This document shows, in pieces, positions 1,626-50,350 of a DNA stretch of 64,000 bases. The stretch comes from Octopus vulgaris (taxonomy: Eukaryota), in the NCBI GenBank assembly GCA_951406725.2, contig OX597842.1:34038001-34102000 (forward strand), written 5' to 3'. The first letter of the stretch is position 1. The number at the start of each line of letters is the position of its first letter. Under the pieces are notes generated by a model. It was not told the origin of the DNA and ran no database searches. It saw nothing but the letters and a program-made list of their open reading frames with translations. Made by a program: the position numbers and the translations under genes.

Positions 1626-2040
1626 GCAGGAGTGGCTGTGTGGTAAGTAGCTTGCTAACCAGCCACATGGTTCCGGGTTCAGTCCCACTGCGTGGCACCT
1701 TGGGCAAGTGTCTTCTGCTATAGCCCCGGGCCGACCAATGCCTTGTGAGTGGATTTGGTAGACGGAAACTGAAAGAAACCTGTCATATATATGTATGTAT
1801 ATATGTGTGTGTGTGTATGTGTTTGTGTGTCTGTGTTTGTCCCCCTAGCATTGCTTGACAACCGATGCTGGTGTGTTTACGTCCCCGTCACTTAGCGGTT
1901 CGGCAAAAGAGACGATAGAATAAGTACTGGACTTACAAAGAATAAGTCCCGGGATCGATTTGCTCGACTAAAGGCGGTGCTCCAGCATGGCAGCAGTCAA
2001 ATGACTGAAATAAGTAAAAGAGTAAAAGAGAGTAAAGAGT
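1626..2040 (+). mobile_element. tRNA-derived SINE family A, near full length
   Basis: Pol III A-box-like TGGCTGTGTGG and B-box-like GGTTCAGTCCC, internal (TA/TG)n tract, 3' stem-loop CAGTC-AAAT-GACTG and (AGTAAA(A)G)n tail. About 18 related copies or fragments lie in the window. Confidence 0.92.
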
Positions 2041-2179
2041 TACGTTATGAGTTCAAATTCCACCGTAGGCCTGAAATGTAAAAGACTTTCTCACCTTCCC
2101 GACCGTCAAATTAATACACCTGCTTGTTGTTTATACACCTGTCTTCGTCTTTTGTTTTTCTGGAAATTTCGACTATATA

Positions 2180-2485
2180 TTTCGCTTTTGGAATTGGTTT
2201 GCAAGAAACTCTATGTGAGTTCGTGTGTTGAAGCATATTCTGTTGTGTCTGGGGAGAGTCGTTTTCTTTTTGTGTCTTATAATTTAACACACTCACCGGT
2301 AAAATTTCCATTTATTTCTTATTTTTATTTTCCTAAAATTTTCGTTGCGTCTTGCAACCTTTTCAATAGTCTTGACTCTGTCCGTTATTATAAATAATAT
2401 AAATAACGGGCAGAGTCAAGACTCTTGAAAAGGTTGCAAGACGCAACGAAAATTTTAGGAAAATAAAAATAAGAAATAAATGGAA

Positions 2486-2487
<2 letters not shown>
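2180..2487. mobile_element. Penelope-like/retrozyme-like fragment with head-to-head inverted arms (2304-2389 / 2402-2487)
   Basis: 86-bp arms with 2 mismatches and a 12-nt loop. The fragment abuts TATATAT on the left and (GATA)n on the right, and each arm holds an HHR-like motif. Confidence 0.7.
2333..2369 (-). ncRNA. Minimal type I hammerhead-like motif, U3-A8 core variant (second copy on + at 2422-2458)
   Basis: Minus strand: cta-TTGAAAA-g-gttgc-aagac-gcaac-GAAA-at-TT-tag. Stem I is 3 bp, stem II is 5 bp, and the stem III region is palindromic (AAATTT). Confidence 0.6.
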
Positions 2488-2574
<87 letters not shown>

Positions 2575-2617
2575 TAGATAGATTGATAGGTAGATAGATA
2601 GATATTGATAGATAGAT

Positions 2618-2750
2618 ATGTTTCTTTATTAGCCACACAGGGCTGCACACAGACAGGACAAATTACAAGGTAGAGCTTTTCTTTGGGGGGTAAGAAAAGG
2701 GGGTTTGGTTTTCGATCAAAAGGGATCGTAAAGGGAAAGAAAGAGGACAT
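2618..2750 (-). mobile_element. Probable non-LTR retroelement 3' end inserted in (GATA)n
   Basis: Unique segment between two (GATA)n runs. The minus strand ends ...GCTAATAAAGAAACAT directly before the microsatellite. Family not assigned. Confidence 0.4.
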
Positions 2751-14350: not shown

Positions 14351-14689
14351 CGTATATACCTATGTATGTACATAGATATACACTTTCATGCTTTCATACA
14401 TGTATACATTCATTCATGCATACACATATACAAGTATATACATACATGCACACTTTCATATAAATACATGCACATAGATTATTATACGCGCACTCACACA
14501 ATCAACATGTATATATATGCGTGTGTGAGCGTGTATATATATATATATGAACACTTCCATATACAGATATTTGAGTATAGACACATTCATACATACACTG
14601 ACAATATGTCACATAGATACACACACATTCGCACACGCATATAGATTGACACGCACAAATACAGACACAAACACACACACACACACACA

Positions 14690-15340
14690 CACACACTTAC
14701 GCACTCACACATACATATGCATTCACACACACACACACACACCTGCACACGGACACACACAGAGGCTCATTCACAGACTTGAACTCACACGTACAATTAC
14801 ACACTCACGCGTACACATGCATTCACACACACACACACACACACACGCCTACACACACGCACAAGGTCATTCACAGACACGCACTCACACACACTTACGC
14901 ACTCACACATACATATGCATTCGCACACACACATACACTCACCTGCACTCACGCACAGGCTCATCCACAGACACACACACACACTTACACACTCACACAT
15001 ACATATGCATTCATACACACACACGCCTGCACACACGTACAGGCTCATTCACACACACACACACACTTACACACTCACACATACATATGCATTCGCACAC
15101 ACACATAGACACACCTGCACACAAGCACAGGCTCATTCACAGACACGCACTCACATACACACACCTACACACTCACACATACATATGCATTCACACACAC
15201 ACACACACGCCTACACACACGCACAAGGTCATTCACAGACACGCACACACATACACTTACACACTCACACATACATATGCATTCGCACACACACATACAC
15301 ACACCTGCACACAGGCACAGGATCATTCGCAAACACGCAC
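14690..15340. repeat. Compound (CA)n-derived minisatellite, variable unit of roughly 65 bp
   Basis: Recurring acttac(g/a)cactcacacatacatatgcattc...gg(c/t)tcattcacagac modules. Confidence 0.8.
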
Positions 15341-15477
15341 TCACACACGCGCACACACACATATAAATGTCATCACGCACACAATCGTTGCTACATATAT
15401 ATGTTCACAAACACACACACACACACACATACACACACAAGCACGTACACACAAAGAGACTCACACATATACATATA

Positions 15478-15672
15478 TACAAGTGGATGTTAAAAAGTCA
15501 CTGGTTTTAAGGTTATTACGAAACGCCGGGTTTACAGAGCTTAGAAAAACTGAAGGACCGCCGCGATAAATGTATGGATCTGAGAGGGGAATATGTTGAA
15601 TAAAATCATAATTAACTGACCCTCCTGAAGTTTCTTTTACCCAAAACCAGAAACTTTTCAAACCCTTTCGTA
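15478..15672 (+). mobile_element. Tc1/mariner-derived MITE
   Basis: TA at both ends and imperfect TIRs (tacaagtggatgttaaaaagtcactggtttt / aaaaccagaaacttttcaaaccctttcgta). An internal remnant translates RRDKCMDLRGEYVE*, resembling a mariner transposase C-terminus. Confidence 0.75.
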
Positions 15673-15770
15673 TAATTTTTATTTTCTCCCCTTCGGGATT
15701 TTCCCGTTTATTTAGCGGTCATTCTAAAGCTCTTTTGTTTGTCTTAATAATCTTAATATACATATATATA

Positions 15771-15957
15771 AGGCGCAGGAGTGGCTGTGTGGTAAGTAGC
15801 TGGCTAACCAACCACATGGTTCCGGGTTCAGTCCCACTGCGTGGCATCTTGGTCAAGTATCTTCTACTATAGCCTCGGGCCGACCAATGCCTTGTGAGTG
15901 GATTTGGTAGACGGAAATTGAAAGAAGCCCATCGTATATATATATATGTACATATAT

Positions 15958-15998
<41 letters not shown>

Positions 15999-16180
15999 TC
16001 CACCTAGCATTGCTTGACAACCGATGCTGGTGTGTTTACGTCCCCGTCACTTAGCGGTTCGGCAAAAGAGACCGATAGAATAAGTACTGGGCTTAAAAAG
16101 AATAAGTCCCGGGGTCGATTTGCTCGACTAAAGGCGGTGCTCCAGCATGGCCGCAGTCAAATGACTGAAACAAGTCAAAG
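15771..16180 (+). mobile_element. SINE family A, full length
   Basis: aggcgcaggagtggctgtgtggtaag...gactgaaacaagt. Confidence 0.93.
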
Positions 16181-16233
16181 AATATACATAGTAATTTCCC
16201 TTTGTTTAACGGTCATTTTCATAGCGTATTTGT

Positions 16234-16309
16234 TTGTCTTAATAACTGACGAGATGCCGGAGCAGAGATTGTGTCCCGACATCCGAAACTCGGAGTTTTA
16301 TTATGACAA
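16234..16309 (+). ncRNA. Type I hammerhead ribozyme motif, canonical core
   Basis: ttgtcttaataa-CTGACGA-gatgccgg...ccgacatc-c-GAAA-ctcggag-TT-ttattatgacaa. Stem I is 12 bp with one mismatch, stem II pairs gatg/catc and cgg/ccg, and the cleavage triplet is GUU. Confidence 0.75.
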
Positions 16310-16772
16310 CCGAATAATTATATATATACGAATGCCTATATACATATTCATATATGTGTGTGTGTGTGTGTGTGTGTGTTGTTTGTACGTGTGTTTGTGT
16401 AACTGTCTTTTTATCTATCTAGCAATCCAACCATGTATCTATCTATCATTCTATCAACTTATTCATTTGTCAGACTGAGTCTGTCTTTTTATTTAAGTAT
16501 CAAACTATTTATTTATCTATCTATCTATCCATCCATCTACCTACCTATATATCTACCTGTTTATCTATCTATATACCTGTCTAGCAATCTATCTATCTGT
16601 TTATCTATCTGTCTATCTATCTTTCTATCTACCCATTATCTATGTATGTATTATCTATTTATTTAGCCATTTACCTACATACCTATCTACCCACCCACCT
16701 ATCTACCTATCTCTCTATCTATCTACATTTCTACTCGTCTATCTACAGCAACAGCAAAACTACTCTCCCTCT

Positions 16773-16840
<68 letters not shown>

Positions 16841-17158
16841 TACACACACACACACTTTACAATGCTGCTTCTCTCCAATCACGCAGAAAATGCATTTCAC
16901 ACACTTTTGTGCTTCCATACAATATTTGTTAATATATTTCGGGACACTCGGGTTTCTGTTGTATCTTCCGATATTATTTCCATTGTTTTTATTACTGACG
17001 TTGTGGTTGCTGTTGTTGTTGCTGTTTTTGTTGGTATAGTTATTGTTTCTCTGGTTGTAGTAGTAGCTGTTATTGTTGTTGTTGTTGTTGCTTAGACTCT
17101 GATCCAGCGAACATACCAACAATCAACTTCATCGTCATCATCATCATCATCATCAACG

Positions 17159-17193
<35 letters not shown>

Positions 17194-18099
17194 GTCATCA
17201 CCATCATCATCATCATCATCATCATCGTCACCATCATCATCGTCATCACCATCATCATCGTCATCACCATCCTCATCATCATCATCATCGTCATCACCAT
17301 CATCATCGTCATCGTCATCATCCTCCCCGTCCTCATCATCATCATCCTCATCATCATCATACTCATCATTATCATCATCATTATCATCATCATCATCACC
17401 GTCATCATCATCATCATCGTCATCATCATCATCATCATCATCATCATTGTCGTCGTCGTTGTCATCTTTACTATCATCACCGTTATCATTACATTCATCA
17501 TCACCATTATCATCGTCATCATCATCGCTATCCTCAGGATCCTCACCATCATCATCATCACCACCATCATCTTTATCATCATCATCATCATCATCACCAA
17601 CACCATCATCTTAATCAGCATCGTCGTCGTCACCCCAGCCACCATTATCATCATCATCATCATTATCACCATCGTCTTCATCATCATCATCATCGTCGTC
17701 ACCACCATCATCATCATCATCATCACCATCGCCACCGTGATCACCATCATCATTACCATCATCATCAACATCATCATCATCATCATCACCATATTGTCCT
17801 CTAATTTGGCCCGACTCTCCCAGCGTGCCACTGTCATCGGTGATCAATAACCGTGCGTCTTAATCGATGTCTTTGTTTATTTTTTATTTTATTTATTTTT
17901 TTTTATCCGAAACTCACCCACCGTCGATTGTTTCGTTAATCATTCTGTTAACCAATCAATCAATCAATCAATCAATCAGCTGTATTTGGCCAACTGCCCT
18001 ACACGCCATTCGTGACCACATCAATGACACACCCTCTTCGTTCCAGGTCAGTTCCGAGTCACCGAGACCTACATATAATATATATTTCTGTGTGTGTGT

Positions 18100-18149
<50 letters not shown>

Positions 18150-18189
18150 ATATATATGTGTGTGTGTGTGTGTGTGTTCTGTTTATTAT

Positions 18190-18298
18190 TTTATTCTTTT
18201 ACTTGTTTCAGGCATTTGACTGCGGCCATGCTGGAGCACCGTCTTTTAGTCGAACAAATCGACCCCACCAGGACTTGTTGTTTCGTAAGGCTAGTACT
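18190..18298 (-). mobile_element. SINE family A, 3' fragment
   Basis: ttttacttgtttcagg...gactgcggccatgctggagcacc. Confidence 0.8.
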
Positions 18299-18299
18299 A

Positions 18300-18545
18300 A
18301 AATAAAAATTAAAATAAAAACAAATAGAATTAGTTCTTGTGTTTTTAAATATTGAAATCCTTCCTCTGTAGAAGGAGCTGGTTTCCAACAAAGATGTATT
18401 TATGTATGTTCTGTTTTGTTTTAAAAGGACCTGGATTCTAACAAAGGCACAAAACTCCATCATTGGAATGAAGATAACGAAAACAATGTCAGATTTTAAA
18501 TTTGAGAAAAGTCTTGCATACTTTTATTGTTCCACTTACAGATGG
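18300..18545 (-). mobile_element. RLE-type non-LTR retrotransposon 3' end (related to 62224-62490)
   Basis: Minus strand translates SVSGTIKVCKTFLKFKI*, homologous to SVSGTVKICKTFLKF at about 62345-62390, followed by a putative 3' UTR. Confidence 0.65.
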
Positions 18546-19562
18546 TATTTATGCATATCTGTATGTGTGTGTGTGTAGAGGGCCTTTGCTTTGGGAGTTT
18601 CAGTGTTTTCTGGCAAGGTATCCTTTTTCCATCAACTTATCTGTATATCTATCTATATACTCGTTTTTGTGTCTACTTAACTTTCTATCAGTAGATCTAG
18701 CGGACTACCACTAAATCCATATATCTATCTATCTATCTGTTTAGCTATCTATCTGTCTATCTAGCTAGGTAGCTACCTCTATCTATCTATCTATCTATCT
18801 ATTTAACTATCTATCTCTCTATCTCCCTAACTATCTATCTGTCTATCTATCTATCTATCTATCTATCTATCCATCTATCTATTTATCATTCTATCTTTTC
18901 ATCTAACTACATATCTGTCTATGTATCTATTTGACTATGTATTTGCCTATCTCTCTATCTGTAACTACCTGTCTGTCGATCAATATAACTAAATATCTAT
19001 CTATATCAGTGTTTGTCCCTCTTTCTAGCTGTTACTCTATCTATTTATTTCTCAAACTCTCTATCTATCTATTCATATGTTTGTCTATCTATCTATCTAT
19101 CTTTCTATCTATCTACATATCTATCTGTCTGACTATCTTTCTCTGTGTGCATTTATCTACTCATCGCAACCTCCCCCTAGTCTATGATGCTATGTCTGTC
19201 TGTGTGTCATGCAATATGAAAGATGTGAAACCAAGTGTGAAACAATATGGCCGACACACTGTCAATATCTCCAGGTGGTTTCGTCAAAATGAACCACTGC
19301 CTTATACGGTCAACAACAACAATAACAACAACCACAACAGCAGCAGCCAGCAAACAGGAATAATATTAATAAAATTGATGATGATGGTGGTGATGATGAT
19401 GAGGAGGAGGAGGGGAGGGAGTAGGGGAGGAGGTGGGGATATTGAGGTTGTCGATCATGATCATGATGATGATGACGGTGGTGGTGGCGGTGGCGGTGGC
19501 GGCGGCAGCGGTGATGGCTGTCGTGATTTTGATGGTGGTCGTGGCTGTGGTGTTGATGATAG

Positions 19563-33228: not shown

Positions 33229-33295
<67 letters not shown>

Positions 33296-33298
<3 letters not shown>

Positions 33299-33677
33299 AC
33301 TGGAGTGTCTTGTCCCAAACTTTGGCATCCAAAGTTACCCCAACCGCAGAACGGGGCGCCACTGCATGGTGCCAGATATTCCTACATCACCATCAAAATA
33401 CAGGTCCAGATACTGCAACAGCTTGGGTTTCAGAGGACCGCAGCTCTTCAACATCCTCCCTAAATACCTGAGAGATTTGCATGGTGTGGATGTGGGTTTC
33501 TTTAAAACTAAACTGGATCTCTTCTTGTCGGGGTTCCCAGATGAACCTACCTCGCGGCAGGAGACACAGATGCGGACAGCGGCATCGAACTCCGTTGTTG
33601 ACCAAGTGCCACGTATCAGAGGTGGATTCACATACTAGTGTAGCTCATTCAGCGGTGGTGCCCCAGCAGGGCCGCAT
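33296..33677 (+). mobile_element. 5'-truncated CR1/L2-like LINE: ORF2 C-terminus plus 3' UTR start
   Basis: Open frame ILECLVPNFG…NSLGFRGPQLFNILPKYLRDLHGVDVGFFKTKLDLFLSGFPDEP…AASNSVVDQ, typical of the post-RT C-terminus of CR1/L2-group ORF2. Confidence 0.82.
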
Positions 33678-33982: not shown

Positions 33983-35377
33983 TCTTTCCCCCCCCTTCTA
34001 CGTTTCTCTATCTCTCTCACCTCCAGTCCCCTCGATCTGTCTCTTTCTTCTCCTCCCTCGTCCACCTTCTCTCTCTTTTCATCTGTCCCTTTCTCCTGTC
34101 TTTTGTTCTCACGTGACCGCTAGCCACTGTTGAGCGCTCTTTTCGTTCCAGCAGTCGCCGAAGCAACACGTATTTGTTCGTCTCCCTGCGGCCATTAGGC
34201 ACAACTTCATAAGCCAGCCCTAAACTCAACTCGTCCTGTCGAAAGACCCTTGTCCTACGTCCTGGTTTTGTTTTGTTTTTTATTTTTACCGTTATTGTTT
34301 TTACGTTTTTGTATTCTTATTGGTGTCACGTATTCTGTATTTTTGTTCGTGTACTTCGTTCGTTTTCCGTCCTCGTGTTGTATACATTCGAAGCTTTCTT
34401 CCAGGGGATCTAATGCGCTTGGCTTAGATTTCCCTTGGCGGGCTGCCCAAATCGGAGCAATCTCAAGATTAATCAGCCGAAATTGCTAAGATGATCTGGT
34501 TCTTGACTGATGACTGAGGGCTTCGAATGTCCCGTCCTGTGGTTCTTGTGTCGTCTCTGTGGTGTTTCATGTTCTTGTCCATGTCTGTAATTATTTTTAC
34601 TGTTTACCCATATAATCGGCGGCTACGTATCCACAATTGTCCTTATACGATAAGTATATTTTGTCTCTAGCATTGATACGACTCTTGATCTGTCTCTTTC
34701 TCTCTCTCTCTCTCCTCCCTTATTCCCCTTCCTTTCTTTCCCTCTCCATCCGTCTTCCCCCCCCCCTTCTACGTTTCTCTATCTCTCTCACCTCCAGTCC
34801 CCTCGATCTGTCTCTTTCTTCTCCTCCCTCGTCCACCTTCTCTCTCTTTTCATCTGTCCCTTTCTCCTGTCTTTTGTTCTCACGTGACCGCTAGCCACTG
34901 TTGAGCGCTCTTTTCGTTCCAGCAGTCGCCGAAGCAACACGTATTTGTTCGTCTCCCTGCGGCCATTAGGCACAACTTCATAAGCCAGCCCTAAACTCAA
35001 CTCGTCCTGTCGAAAGACCCTTGTCCTACGTCCTGGTTTTGTTTTGTTTTTTATTTTTACCGTTATTGTTTTTACGTTTTTGTATTCTTATTGGTGTCAC
35101 GTATTCTGTATTTTTGTTCGTGTACTTCGTTCGTTTTCCGTCCTCGTGTTGTATACATTCGAAGCTTTCTTCCAGGGGATCTAATGCGCTTGGCTTAGAT
35201 TTCCCTTGGCGGGCTGCCCAAATCGGAGCAATCTCAAGATTAATCAGCCGAAATTGCTAAGATGATCTGGTTCTTGACTGATGACTGAGGGCTTCGAATG
35301 TCCCGTCCTGTGGTTCTTGTGTCCTCTCTGTGGTGTTTCATGTTCTTGTCCATGTCTGTAATTATTTTTACTGTTTA

Positions 35378-38546: not shown

Positions 38547-38989
38547 TTGAGTGAAAGAGCAGTTCATGCCATCAAAGTGACACTGGGGTACAAATGTACA
38601 AAGCCCAGTATACCCATCATGAGAACCCCTCTGATAAGGGTACACCAGGCACATGCATCACAACCATATGTGCACGACATGGTGATCTCATATCAAGATA
38701 AACAGCACATGACCTTGCAGGTGGGGCCCAGTTAGAGTTTTCTTCAGGTCGAGTAGCCTATCCAGCTCAAAAAATCCCTGAATAAGGACTGTTTAAGGAT
38801 GTTGAACGAAACACCCATGTTTCCAGAGGTGAAATATCCAAACCCCAAAGAATCCCTCTCAACACATGGCTATGATGCTCCCCCACTACTTCTGCTCGTG
38901 ATCAGAGATGCACATATCGTCAGCCACCAAGGGACATGCTCAACTGATTGAGGTCAAACAACTGACAATCAAATCTGTGGTATTGAGCA
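38547..38989 (-). mobile_element. (AAT)n-associated element, truncated copy of 43291-43850
   Basis: Reverse complement of about 43409-43850 and joined to (TTA)n. Confidence 0.88.
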
Positions 38990-43294: not shown

Positions 43295-43848
43295 GCCCTG
43301 ATGCAGTACCAGGCAGTGGCTCTCATGGCTTCTGATCTTAACTGATTGGAAGTGTTATCATGTACATTGTTTTGTCTAGGTATAAAAGATGGGCTACAGC
43401 AAATATTCTGCTCAATACCACAGATTTGCTTGTCAGTTGTTTGACCTTACCCAGTTGAGCATGTCCCTTAGTGGCTGACGATATGTGCATCTCTGATCAC
43501 GAGCAGAAGTAGTGGGGGAGCATCATGGCCATGTGTTGAGAGGGATTCTTTGGAGTTTGAATGGTTCACCTCTGGAAACATAGGTGTTTCGTTCAACATC
43601 CTAAAGCAACCCTTATTCAGGGACCTTTTGAGCAGGATGGGCTACTCAACCTGAAGAAAATTCTAACTGGGCCCCACCTGCAAGGTCATGTGCTGTTTAT
43701 CTTGATATGAGATCACCATGTCGCGCACATATGGTTGTGATGCATGTGCCTGGTGTACCTTTATCAGACGGGTAGTCATGATGGGTATATTGGGCTTCGT
43801 ATATTTTACCCCAGTGTCACTTTGATGGCATCAACTGCTCTCTCACTC

Positions 43849-44204: not shown

Positions 44205-44272
<68 letters not shown>

Positions 44273-44400
44273 CAGCAAAAATTTAGATTCAAATAAATAT
44301 GGTACTTAATTTAGATGCACCAGAATTTTGTATGGTGTTATCCATAAAAATCCGTGGGATGATTATAACCAAAATAAGCAACAAGAATGACTCCGGTAAT

Positions 44401-44487
44401 TTGGTACGATCGTTTCGTACTACATCATTTTATTAAATGTTGTAAGTATTACAACAGATTTAAGATGCTGAGTACTCATCAGCCCAT
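44401..44487 (-). ncRNA. Type I hammerhead ribozyme motif, canonical core and long stem II, in a fragment (44270-44519) flanked by (TA)n
   Basis: Minus strand: gg-CTGATGA-gtact…catc-ttaaa-tc-tgttgtaa-tac-ttacaaca-tttaa…gatg-t-agtac-GAAAC-gatc-GTA-cc. Palindromic stem III ACGATCGT. Stem I is only about 2 bp. Confidence 0.8.
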
Positions 44488-44515
44488 TATAGACGTTTTC
44501 CATTAATACAACAAT

Positions 44516-44580
<65 letters not shown>

Positions 44581-44632
44581 CATATATATATATTATGTAT
44601 GTATTATGTTTGTAAGTCTATATGTATTATGA

Positions 44633-44897
44633 ACTGGACCTGCTCTTTTTAACATCATTCCCAAAACATATAAAGGAGGAAAAAGATTTCATAACATTCA
44701 AAAAAATATTTGGATGAATATCTCCAACAATTTTCAGATAATCCACCTTCACCCAGATATACTGCTTCAAGCAACAACTCTTTAATCCAATGGGCAATGG
44801 TGCCTAAAAATGACTATCCAAAAATATATTACTAAATGACTTTTTCAGGTGGTGCTATTAAGTTAGCTATGGCCGGGGCCAATGTGGCCGAAACCTA
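44633..44897 (+). mobile_element. CR1/L2-like LINE 3' end, second family, frameshifted
   Basis: With two frameshifts it translates TGPALFNIIPK/HIKEEKDFITFKK/YLDEYLQQFSDNP…SSNNSLIQW, then a 3' stem-loop ggcc-aatgt-ggcc-gaaac. Confidence 0.72.
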
Positions 44898-45304
44898 TTT
44901 GAGTTCCACCGTCTAGGCTTAAAAAGCCCTTATCATTTGTTTCTCCTTGTCCTCTCTTTTACTGTTTTTATCTTTATTTGTATTTCTTTTACTGTCCTGT
45001 TCTTGTCACTTTTTTACCTCTCCGCAAAAAAGATGCCAAATTTTGTTTGGTTTGCTTTGCGGGAAGGACTGTTTCGGCGAGGTCGTGTCCTGCTCTTACC
45101 TTCGAAACACGCAATAAGTCGAAACAGGGGCAGCTGAGGAAGGGGAATGTTCCTTGTGTTGTATGTCTTGTAGTCTGTTTTTTCGTTGTTAAAAAAAGTC
45201 CCTTTTCCCTGTTTTGTTTTTATATTTTCGTTTCTCGCTGTGTTCTACGTTCTTTTGTGGTGTCCTGTACCCAAATATGCATGTATATATATACATATAG
45301 ATGT

Positions 45305-48159: not shown

Positions 48160-48662
48160 TTGATTAGATCGACCCAGTACACAACTGGTACTTAATTTGA
48201 ACTCAGAACATGAAGACAGACGAAATACCCATTTCTTAACTACCCACAAGGGGTTAAACACAGAGAAGACAAACAAGGACAGACAAACGTTTTAAGTCGA
48301 TTACATCTACCACAGTGCGTAACTGGTACTTATTTAATCGACCCCCGAAAGAATGAAAGGCAAAGTCGACCTGGGTAGAATTTGAACTCAGAACTTAGCG
48401 GCAGACGAAATATCTATTTCTTTACTACCCACAAGGGACTAAACACAGAGGAGACAAACAAGGACAGACAAACAAGAACAGACAAAGGGATTAAGTCGAT
48501 TATATCGACCCCAGTGTGTCACTGGTACTTATTTAATCGACCCCGAAAGGATGAAGGGCAAAGTCGACCTCGGTGGAATTTGAACTCAGAACGTAGCAGC
48601 AGGCGAAATACAGCTAAGCCTTTCGCCCGCCGTGCTAACGTTTCTGCCAGCTCGCCGCCTTA
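48160..48662 (-). mobile_element. SINE family B concatemer: one full head plus two head-truncated units
   Basis: Head …ctgccagctcgccgcctt at 48662. The B-box segment atttgaactcagaac occurs three times and the tail actacccacaaggg..taaacacagag twice. Confidence 0.88.
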
Positions 48663-50051: not shown

Positions 50052-50345
50052 ACAATTGCAGCGTGGAAGGTGTTTATAAGCCATTTAAGAAACACACAAA
50101 AGCCGTTCGATTCACTTTAACATTTAAGTTTAATTTGTCAAAATATTTTCGTCGCTAAAATCCGCGACCTGTTCACTGACAAAAATCCGTGCTGCATCTC
50201 TGAGATACAGCACGGATTTTTGTCAGTGAACAGGTCGCGGTCTCGAAGCAACGAAAATATTTTGACAAATTAAACTTAAATGTTGAAGTGAATCGAACGG
50301 CTTTTGTGTGTTTCTTAAAGGCTTATAAACACCTTCCACGCTGCA

Positions 50346-50350
<5 letters not shown>
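50052..50350. mobile_element. 299-bp fold-back (about 149-bp arms, centre 50201) in (TA)n: two head-to-head Penelope-like fragments
   Basis: acaattgcagcgtggaaggtgttt… / …aaacaccttccacgctgcaattgt. The arms are complementary up to a 1-nt centre, with (TA)n on both sides. Confidence 0.9.
50134..50183 (-). ncRNA. Minimal type I hammerhead motif, G3-C8 core variant (second copy on + at 50219-50269)
   Basis: tttgtca-GTGAACA-g-gtcgc-ggatttta-gcgac-GAAA-atat-TT-tgacaaa. Stem I is 7 bp, stem II is 5 bp, and the stem III region is palindromic (AAATATTT). Confidence 0.72.

What the first reader, a model, noticed from the sequence alone, without database searches (positions are those of the whole stretch)
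2304..2487. Second fold-back family with a U3-A8 hammerhead core
Seen: 86-bp inverted arms (2 mismatches, 12-nt loop), each with TTGAAAA-g-gttgc/gcaac-GAAA-at-TT. The spacing matches the 50052 family, including the extra G before stem II, while flanking sequence is different. Inference: U3-A8 is another compensatory version of the 3-8 pair. Finding C-G, G-C and U-A at positions 3 and 8 within one window is covariation evidence that these are real HHR descendants. Stem I is only 3 bp and is broken in the + arm.
Basis: partly seen in the sequence, partly recalled or inferred. Interest (0 to 1): 0.8.

Follow-up and report, generated by a model that had tools for sequence, protein, structure and literature searches.

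The report
Penelope-type retroelement stub with variant hammerhead
The mirror-image repeat is a short leftover end of a very abundant jumping gene, most likely Penelope-like, that carries a tiny self-cutting RNA motif of a variant type already described in other animals, so it is real but ordinary.

Summary
Stem I (3 bp) is broken in the + arm. The motif exceeds chance (0 of 200 shuffles with stem I). It is not a 'fold-back family', though. Laying three DNA runs on the left arm shows a very abundant repeat that runs about 120 nt further left than reported. The spacer is nearly private, and other copies fold back at other points. Both arms share a rare allele, so they come from one template or source element. 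Best reading: a 5'-truncated end of a Penelope-like element with a head-to-head inverted partial copy, inserted between (TA)n and (AGAT)n. No link to a PLE ORF could be shown. U3-A8, the extra base before stem II, short stem I and opposite-strand pairs were all published for PLE hammerheads in 2014. At this locus the motif is probably silent, because the 86-bp hairpin masks it. New member of a known kind; low interest.

The parts
2183..2389 (-). Long arm: about 205-nt 3'-terminal fragment of a very abundant repeat family (inferred PLE pseudo-LTR end); its 5' end lies 23 nt upstream of U3
   Evidence: continuous depth over about 2192-2389 in 3 of 3 DNA runs; loose-end consensus aligns back to 2182; longer copies continue past 2389 with other letters (72 and 70 contigs in X1, X2). 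The left limit is approximate.
2183..2303 (-). One-sided extension of about 120 nt, present only on the long arm
   Evidence: same family; no counterpart right of 2487 or elsewhere in the window
2304..2389 (-). Left inverted-repeat arm (86 bp); carries the family allele at both inter-arm mismatches
   Evidence: (no majority row at 2367; loose-end consensus agrees with the left arm at 2381)
2333..2369 (-). Minimal type-I hammerhead motif with intact anatomy: 3-bp stem I, UUGAAAA (U3-A8), extra G, 5-bp stem II, GAAA, AAUU palindrome, U17; predicted cut between 2336 and 2335
2390..2401 (.). 12-nt AT-only spacer at the head-to-head junction; not family sequence, near-private
   Evidence: depth 3.76 / 62.8 / 0 in bin 2392-2401 vs 1.3-3.0 million over the core
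2402..2487 (+). Right (short) arm: inverted partial copy with two private changes (2410, 2424); shares the rare 2311/2480 allele with the left arm
2422..2458 (+). Second hammerhead motif; stem I broken by A2.1>C at 2424
2174..2180 (.). Short (TA)n run ending the neighbouring repeat; left side of the inferred target site
   Evidence: loose ends behind 2158 and 2180 are (TA)n
2488..2620 (.). (AGAT)n microsatellite abutting the right arm; right side of the inferred target site; no target-site duplication discernible
2040..2180 (.). Unrelated SINE-like abundant repeat next to the element (not part of it)
   Evidence: matches at 48571, 45835, 59690; depth trough at 2182-2191

Best explanation
The locus is one insertion of the 3' end (pseudo-LTR) of an endonuclease-bearing Penelope-like retroelement (PLE), 5'-truncated and joined head to head to an inverted partial copy of itself. 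SHOWN: high-copy family; full minimal-hammerhead anatomy; near-private junction; variable junctions in other copies; one rare allele shared by both arms; microsatellite flanks; one-sided extension. INFERRED mechanism: the PLE endonuclease nicked an AT-rich compound microsatellite, (TA)n/(AGAT)n. Reverse transcription primed from the left flank copied about 205 nt of element RNA (the + strand here is the cDNA), passed the hammerhead and stopped 23 nt upstream of U3. After a 12-nt AT filler, an inverted copy of the last 86 nt was made and joined to the right flank, either by snap-back onto the new cDNA (my preference) or by a second cDNA primed from the other target strand. In the parent element the hammerhead most likely works as a weak, dimer-dependent, probably protein-assisted self-cleaver pairing through the AAUU palindrome. 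At this locus it is probably inert: on either strand the antisense arm is transcribed first and an 86-bp hairpin sequesters the motif.
For: Anatomy matches the published PLE minimal-hammerhead consensus, including features nobody selected for here: extra base between 9 and 10.1, G10.1-C11.1, palindromic 15/16 segment, 3-bp stem I. A PLE-linked S. mansoni example has the same UUGAAAA heptamer, 3-bp stem I and U17; a PLE-linked oyster example has the same AAUU + U17; 18,320 / 18,635 / 14,558 contigs laid in runs X1, X2, X5 (three organism labels; the counts include the SINE-like end 2102-2180). 10 of the 15 joints shown (of 66) are opposite-strand, all at different coordinates, and for 7 the side lengths force head-to-head geometry. 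2311 is C in about 98% of depth in all three DNA runs, but both window arms have the T allele. Adjacent inverted 5'-truncated copies, a one-sided tail, microsatellite bias with no discernible TSD, and head-to-head orientation are PLE hallmarks. Two other hammerhead stubs in the window also sit in (TA)n. Whole-locus hairpin -131 / -127 kcal/mol. Double-hammerhead dimer -8.6 vs -14.6 kcal/mol for two monomers, fitting weak activity.
Against: No RT or GIY-YIG ORF was linked: no genome is held; none of the 150 of 161 non-repetitive window frames sent to Pfam reached a curated cut-off or hit an RT/endonuclease family; the three frames of the long arm have no Pfam hit. Rfam reports no hammerhead family here, only generic hairpin matches below gathering score. 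The one-sided extension is about 120 nt, not the usual 30-40 nt, and one search shows no depth step or listed loose-end pile at 2304. The extra base is G, whereas the published consensus is H (G in 1 of 56 examples). Only 40 of 188 variant rows and 15 of 66 joints were visible. The runs hold at most 0.51 of the query words, so they may come from related species and the 'rare' allele could mark a subfamily. No pile-up of RNA read ends at the cut site (table 6). Opposite-strand joints mostly show no microhomology, which snap-back would favour.
Confidence: 0.82

Rival explanations
1. A non-autonomous PLE parasite: a roughly 200-nt hammerhead-headed RNA (SINE- or retrozyme-like), transcribed from short copies and mobilised in trans by a PLE protein, rather than truncation debris of full-length elements.
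For: Very high abundance. RNA depth falls from 283 (2352-61) to 101 (2372-81) and 30 (2382-91). 7 of 10 opposite-strand joints have their upstream end at 2366-2381 (rough p about 5e-4 under uniform breakpoints; small, pre-selected sample). Animal retrozymes are proposed PLE derivatives.
Against: Longer copies exist upstream of 2389 (loose ends). Part of the depth fall is an edge effect plus an insertion allele at 2371. No tandem array here, and BLAST of the element found no tRNA-like head or other copy in the window (no tRNA scan was run). Not exclusive of the best explanation.
Confidence: 0.1
2. A MITE or fold-back DNA transposon amplified as a palindromic unit, the hammerhead-like letters being a passenger or chance.
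For: Long near-perfect inverted repeat without coding capacity; MITEs occur in such genomes.
Against: Spacer depth about five orders of magnitude below the arms; junctions vary between copies; arms unequal (205 vs 86 nt); no TSD. Motif far above chance.
Confidence: 0.04
3. A single old insertion later mirrored by a host DNA event (replication template switch or hairpin-mediated repair), unrelated to retrotransposition.
For: Both arms stop at the same base and share a rare allele; the right arm's outer end is not an evident family terminus.
Against: Head-to-head junctions recur across many copies of this family and in the unrelated 50052 element, always with 5' ends inward, as described for PLEs.
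Confidence: 0.04

Closest known systems
Minimal type-I hammerheads of metazoan Penelope-like elements, especially the U3-A8 variant of S. mansoni Cercyon PLEs (Cervera and de la Pena 2014, PMC4209133)
   Same: UUGAAAA core, extra base before stem II, G10.1-C11.1, palindromic stem III, 3-bp stem I, U17; pairs of motifs on opposite strands about 100-700 bp apart; mostly solitary truncated copies; about 1,300 U3-A8 hits reported in that genome.
   Different: Extra base G (consensus H; 1 of 56 listed examples has G); the two cores are only 59 nt apart; probable cephalopod host (none among the 56 examples); no ORF link shown here.
Insertion architecture of EN+ PLEs (Penelope/Poseidon, Neptune; Arkhipova 2013 PMC3846280, Craig 2021 PMC8557442, Frangieh 2024 PMC11167929)
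   Same: 5' truncation, adjacent inverted copy head to head, extension on one side only, AT-rich or microsatellite target, TSD not discernible.
   Different: Extension about 120 nt rather than 30-40 nt; spacer is AT filler rather than a palindrome or overlap; clade unknown without the ORF.
Natural U3-A8 hammerheads (Perreault 2011, PMC3088659)
   Same: Same compensated 3-8 pair, reported there in several natural examples and as active in vitro.
   Different: Those are not minimal dimer-type motifs at retroelement ends (from passages read only).
Animal non-LTR retrozymes (bioRxiv 10.64898/2026.07.22.740005)
   Same: Non-coding, type-I hammerhead, proposed PLE origin.
   Different: Retrozymes are head-to-tail tandem arrays; this is a head-to-head single insertion.

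Membership tests
Minimal type-I hammerhead (PLE type) | Core N3-UGA-N-N8-A9 with Watson-Crick 3-8 pair, and G12-A13-A14-A15.1 | tested here: met
   U3-A8 in both arms
Minimal type-I hammerhead (PLE type) | Stem II with G10.1-C11.1 and one unpaired base before it | tested here: met
   5 bp, in the MFE fold of each arm. The extra base is G, not the consensus H. G10.1>U in 19% of depth in run X5 and 2% in X1, X2.
Minimal type-I hammerhead (PLE type) | Palindromic 15/16 segment, U16.1-H17 | tested here: met
   AAUU, U17
Minimal type-I hammerhead (PLE type) | Stem I of at least 2-3 bp | tested here: met
   Met in the - arm (3 bp, in its MFE fold); not met in the + arm
Minimal type-I hammerhead (PLE type) | Covariation of 3/8 and stem pairs across family copies | tested here: inconclusive
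   One search gives per-position rows only, 40 of 188 shown; none at 2366 or 2361; 2347 change keeps pairing as G-U
Minimal type-I hammerhead (PLE type) | Self-cleavage after N17 (as dimer or protein-assisted) | not testable with these tools
   No end pile-up in one ordinary RNA-seq run, which is insensitive to such ends; dimer fold disfavoured by 6-8 kcal/mol
Rfam hammerhead families | Covariance-model hit | tested here: not met
   No hammerhead family among 47 matches to E 10 over 2180-2495
EN+ Penelope-like element | Linked telomerase-like RT and GIY-YIG ORF upstream in longer copies | tested here: inconclusive
   None in the window; no genome held; only 30 nt of upstream consensus seen
EN+ Penelope-like element | Interspersed, 5'-truncated copies with adjacent head-to-head inverted partial copy at variable junctions | tested here: met
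EN+ Penelope-like element | One-sided 30-40-nt tail | tested here: inconclusive
   One-sided extension present but about 120 nt; no depth step at 2304
EN+ Penelope-like element | AT-rich or microsatellite target | tested here: met
   (TA)n left, (AGAT)n right; weak evidence in so microsatellite-rich a window
MITE / fold-back DNA transposon | Unit amplified whole with fixed termini, spacer and TSD | tested here: not met
   Spacer near-private, junctions variable, arms unequal, no TSD
Non-LTR retrozyme | Head-to-tail tandem units each with a hammerhead | tested here: not met
   Only two cores in the window, head to head; arrays elsewhere in the genome not examined

The most novel reading that the evidence does not exclude
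The family spreads mainly as a roughly 200-nt non-autonomous, hammerhead-headed RNA driven by a PLE protein. Its copied 5' end is set 0-23 nt upstream of the core, and the weak U3-A8/G9.1/U17 fold is kept for protein binding or for stopping reverse transcription rather than for cutting. Its many fold-back insertions then supply double-stranded RNA that is A-to-I edited.
Probability: 0.15. Interest if true: 0.45.

Novelty: new member of a known kind. Interest (0 to 1): 0.17.

Why it matters
Modestly. It adds a very abundant U3-A8 PLE-type hammerhead family in a probable cephalopod; searches found no paper describing such families in cephalopods. It also shows that such palindromes should be annotated as PLE ends, not MITEs or miRNA hairpins. 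Thousands of copies with variable inversion junctions could be used to distinguish snap-back from two-cDNA models of PLE integration, and to test whether PLE hammerheads are kept for cutting. Both are open points in the PLE literature.

Tried and rejected
No whole genome is held, so no family alignment or covariance model could be built. Exact 28-nt core scans of metagenome, GTDB and viral contigs: 0 hits each, as expected for an animal repeat. Rfam over the whole window: only the best 150 of 745 rows were visible, nearly all microsatellite/miRNA artefacts; local scan had no hammerhead. Pfam on 150 of 161 non-repetitive frames (the 11 shortest left out): 5 weak hits, all below cut-off. Three frames of the long arm with X at stops: nothing. 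A 13-nt piece of upstream family sequence is absent from the window. No listed holder run is on record as RNA (no evidence either way). A looser descriptor gave 7 hits, including 2 non-Watson-Crick cases (6856, 40566) and a weak A-U-rich one (42085); none passes the strict descriptor, so they were rejected as chance. The 2301/2302 variants resembled the right arm's microsatellite flank, but the X5 loose end before 2328 shows a diverged subfamily instead. Joints near the cut site (2334, 2330, and a 38-nt back-step at 2336) are single contigs or pairs and not distinguishable from chance. The dimer energy for 44482 had an indexing error and is not used. Earlier-findings look-ups by place and by sequence were empty. 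Lunse et al. (PMC5785218) is not held; it is known to me only as a cited title and through a review passage.

Full report
OBSERVATION. The inverted repeat is as described: arms 2304-2389 and 2402-2487, 84 of 86 pairs complementary, mismatches 2367/2424 and 2381/2410, 12-nt spacer. The arms meet head to head, so the hammerhead reads outward on each side. The left (-) arm carries stem I CUA/UAG, core UUGAAAA (U3=2366, A8=2361), an extra G, a 5-bp stem II, GAAA, the AAUU palindrome and U17. The right arm is the same except A2.1>C. A strict descriptor, written after seeing the motifs, finds 4 hits at 3 loci (2366/2425 U3-A8, 50176 G3-C8, 44482 C3-G8), against any hit in 3 of 200 local dinucleotide shuffles. 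With stem I >=3 bp it finds 2 against 0 of 200. Freeing positions 3 and 8 adds no non-paired hit, while only 14.4% of 1,011 background heptamers are paired there. A looser scan did return two non-paired cases, which fail the strict descriptor.

WHAT THE FAMILY LOOKS LIKE. No genome is held, so I laid four public runs on 2102-2401: three DNA contig sets under three organism labels, and about 6% of one raw RNA run. The best holders share only 0.51 of the query words, so they may be relatives of the window's organism. 14,558-18,635 contigs were laid per DNA run, including those on the neighbouring SINE-like end. Depth is continuous from about 2192 to 2389, with a trough at 2182-2191 separating the neighbour, so the left arm is about 205 nt and the right arm copies only its first 86 nt. 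Longer copies continue upstream of 2389 with other letters. Depth on the spacer bin is 3.76, 62.8 and 0 against 1.3-3.0 million on the core (a sum of contig depths, not a copy number; the bin is also at the edge of the stretch). Of 15 joints shown (of 66), 10 are opposite-strand, all at different coordinates. Seven have one end at 2366-2381, with side lengths that force head-to-head geometry. The palindrome is therefore not the amplified unit; it is made anew at insertion. Among the 40 of 188 variant rows shown, none lies at positions 3, 8 or the stem I bases, so U3-A8 and a 3-bp stem I are probably the family state (hidden rows could hold minority changes). In the core, 2347 changes a G-C pair to G-U (21% of RNA reads, under 1% of DNA depth) and 2358 changes G10.1 in 19% of depth in one run. 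Position 2311 differs from the window in about 98% of DNA depth, yet both arms carry the window allele: they derive from one template or one source element. The long arm differs from the majority at 7 shown positions (about 3%), and the right arm has two further private changes.

CONTEXT. The long arm ends at a short (TA)n run that closes a SINE-like repeat; the short arm runs into (AGAT)n; no TSD can be read. Two unrelated hammerhead stubs lie in (TA)n: a 299-bp fold-back at 50052-50350 and a single copy around 44482. No RT or endonuclease remnant was detected. The window looks like an octopus genome to me from its SINEs and microsatellites; this is recalled, not tested.

HOW IT MOST LIKELY WORKS. 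Inferred: target-primed reverse transcription from the left flank made the + strand 2183-2389 as cDNA and stopped 23 nt upstream of U3. After AT filler, an inverted 86-nt copy was made and joined to the right flank. Snap-back explains the identical 5' ends, the shared allele and a short-arm end that is not an evident family terminus. Priming of two cDNAs from both target strands, as the PLE protein does in vitro (Frangieh 2024), is the alternative and fits the scarcity of microhomology at other joints. Later deletion of the right arm's end is not excluded. The ribozyme is predicted weak: the double-hammerhead dimer is -8.6 kcal/mol against -14.6 for two monomers and -16.4 for the best dimer. 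Published PLE minimal hammerheads cleave poorly and only as multimers or need the element's protein, and cleavage was not required for insertion in vitro. At this locus a read-through RNA of either strand makes the antisense arm first and folds into a hairpin of about -130 kcal/mol, so the motif is probably masked. The RNA run shows no pile-up of ends, which that library type could easily miss.

COMPARISON. Cervera and de la Pena 2014 (main text parts 1-3 of 4; supplement file 2, parts 1-2 of 3; file 1 not searchable) report U3-A8 in S. mansoni PLEs (about 1,300 hits), the extra base, palindromic 15/16, and dual motifs on opposite strands. In their 56 examples I count U3-A8 in 2, an extra G in 1 and G3-C8 in 0. 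Perreault 2011 (passages) reports natural U3-A8. Craig 2021 (12 of 26 passages) and Arkhipova 2013 (passages) describe inverted 5'-truncated copies, one-sided tails, head-to-head orientation and microsatellite bias. Frangieh 2024 (parts 1-2 of 4) shows 3/8 double-mutant rescue in a PLE hammerhead. Also seen: a 2019 review, PMC6765202 (passages), the O. vulgaris repeat paper (passages; Penelope-like families listed, 'hammerhead' absent from main text), the giant squid paper (passage; 235 Hammerhead_1 loci) and the 2026 retrozyme preprint (part 1 of 5 and passages; supplements not seen). Searches found no description of such families in cephalopods; Repbase, Dfam and subscription papers were not searchable and may hold them. 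It works like a PLE end with a minimal hammerhead. Membership is met on RNA anatomy and insertion architecture, but the ORF link is untested.

VERDICT. Real, well above chance, and explained by a known class. New member of a known kind; interest 0.17.

Noticed in passing
window 50052-50350: Unrelated 299-bp head-to-head fold-back in (TA)n with a G3-C8 core, extra G, 7-bp stem I, 6-nt palindrome and U17 (G3 at 50176 on -, 50226 on +; stem II differs between arms). G3-C8 is absent from the 56 published examples, so this is the more unusual variant in the window.
   Followed up: partly
window about 44270-44520 (-), C3 at 44482: Single hammerhead stub with canonical C3-G8, no extra base, a long branched stem II segment and an 8-nt palindrome, flanked by (TA)n on both sides.
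   Followed up: partly
window 2366-2389 (joints and depth): Family 5' ends appear to cluster 0-23 nt upstream of U3 (7 of 10 opposite-strand joints at 2366-2381); small, pre-selected sample and partly an edge effect.
   Followed up: partly
window 2102-2401, run X23 vs X5: RNA reads show more A>G and T>C places than DNA contigs of the same species label (61 of 175 vs 13 of 60, p=0.08; A>G alone 17 vs 1, p=0.05). A weak hint of A-to-I editing, equally explicable by older subfamilies or by reads versus contigs.
   Followed up: partly
window 2413-2424: The change that breaks stem I in the right arm turns GAGTC-AA-GACTA into a perfect small inverted repeat, suggesting quasi-palindrome correction.
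   Followed up: no
window 2298-2293 (-): A GTGAGT 5'-splice-site-like motif lies about 40 nt downstream of the hammerhead in the one-sided extension; PLEs carry introns, but this is untested.
   Followed up: no
run X2, joint 2373 to 2336: One contig shows a 38-nt tandem repeat of just the hammerhead core, ending at U17; single observation, not above chance.
   Followed up: no
loose end before 2328 (X5) and rows 2301-2347: A diverged subfamily shares the hammerhead region but differs downstream; it is prominent in the RNA reads.
   Followed up: no
window 44600-44900 (+) and 33273-33600 (+): Stretches that resemble 3' ends of LINE ORF2 (recalled motif); no Pfam support.
   Followed up: no
window 34273-35300 and 38700-38950 / 43470-43830: A local duplication with period about 770 nt, and an inverted pair of repeat copies about 4.5 kb apart (seen).
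   Followed up: no
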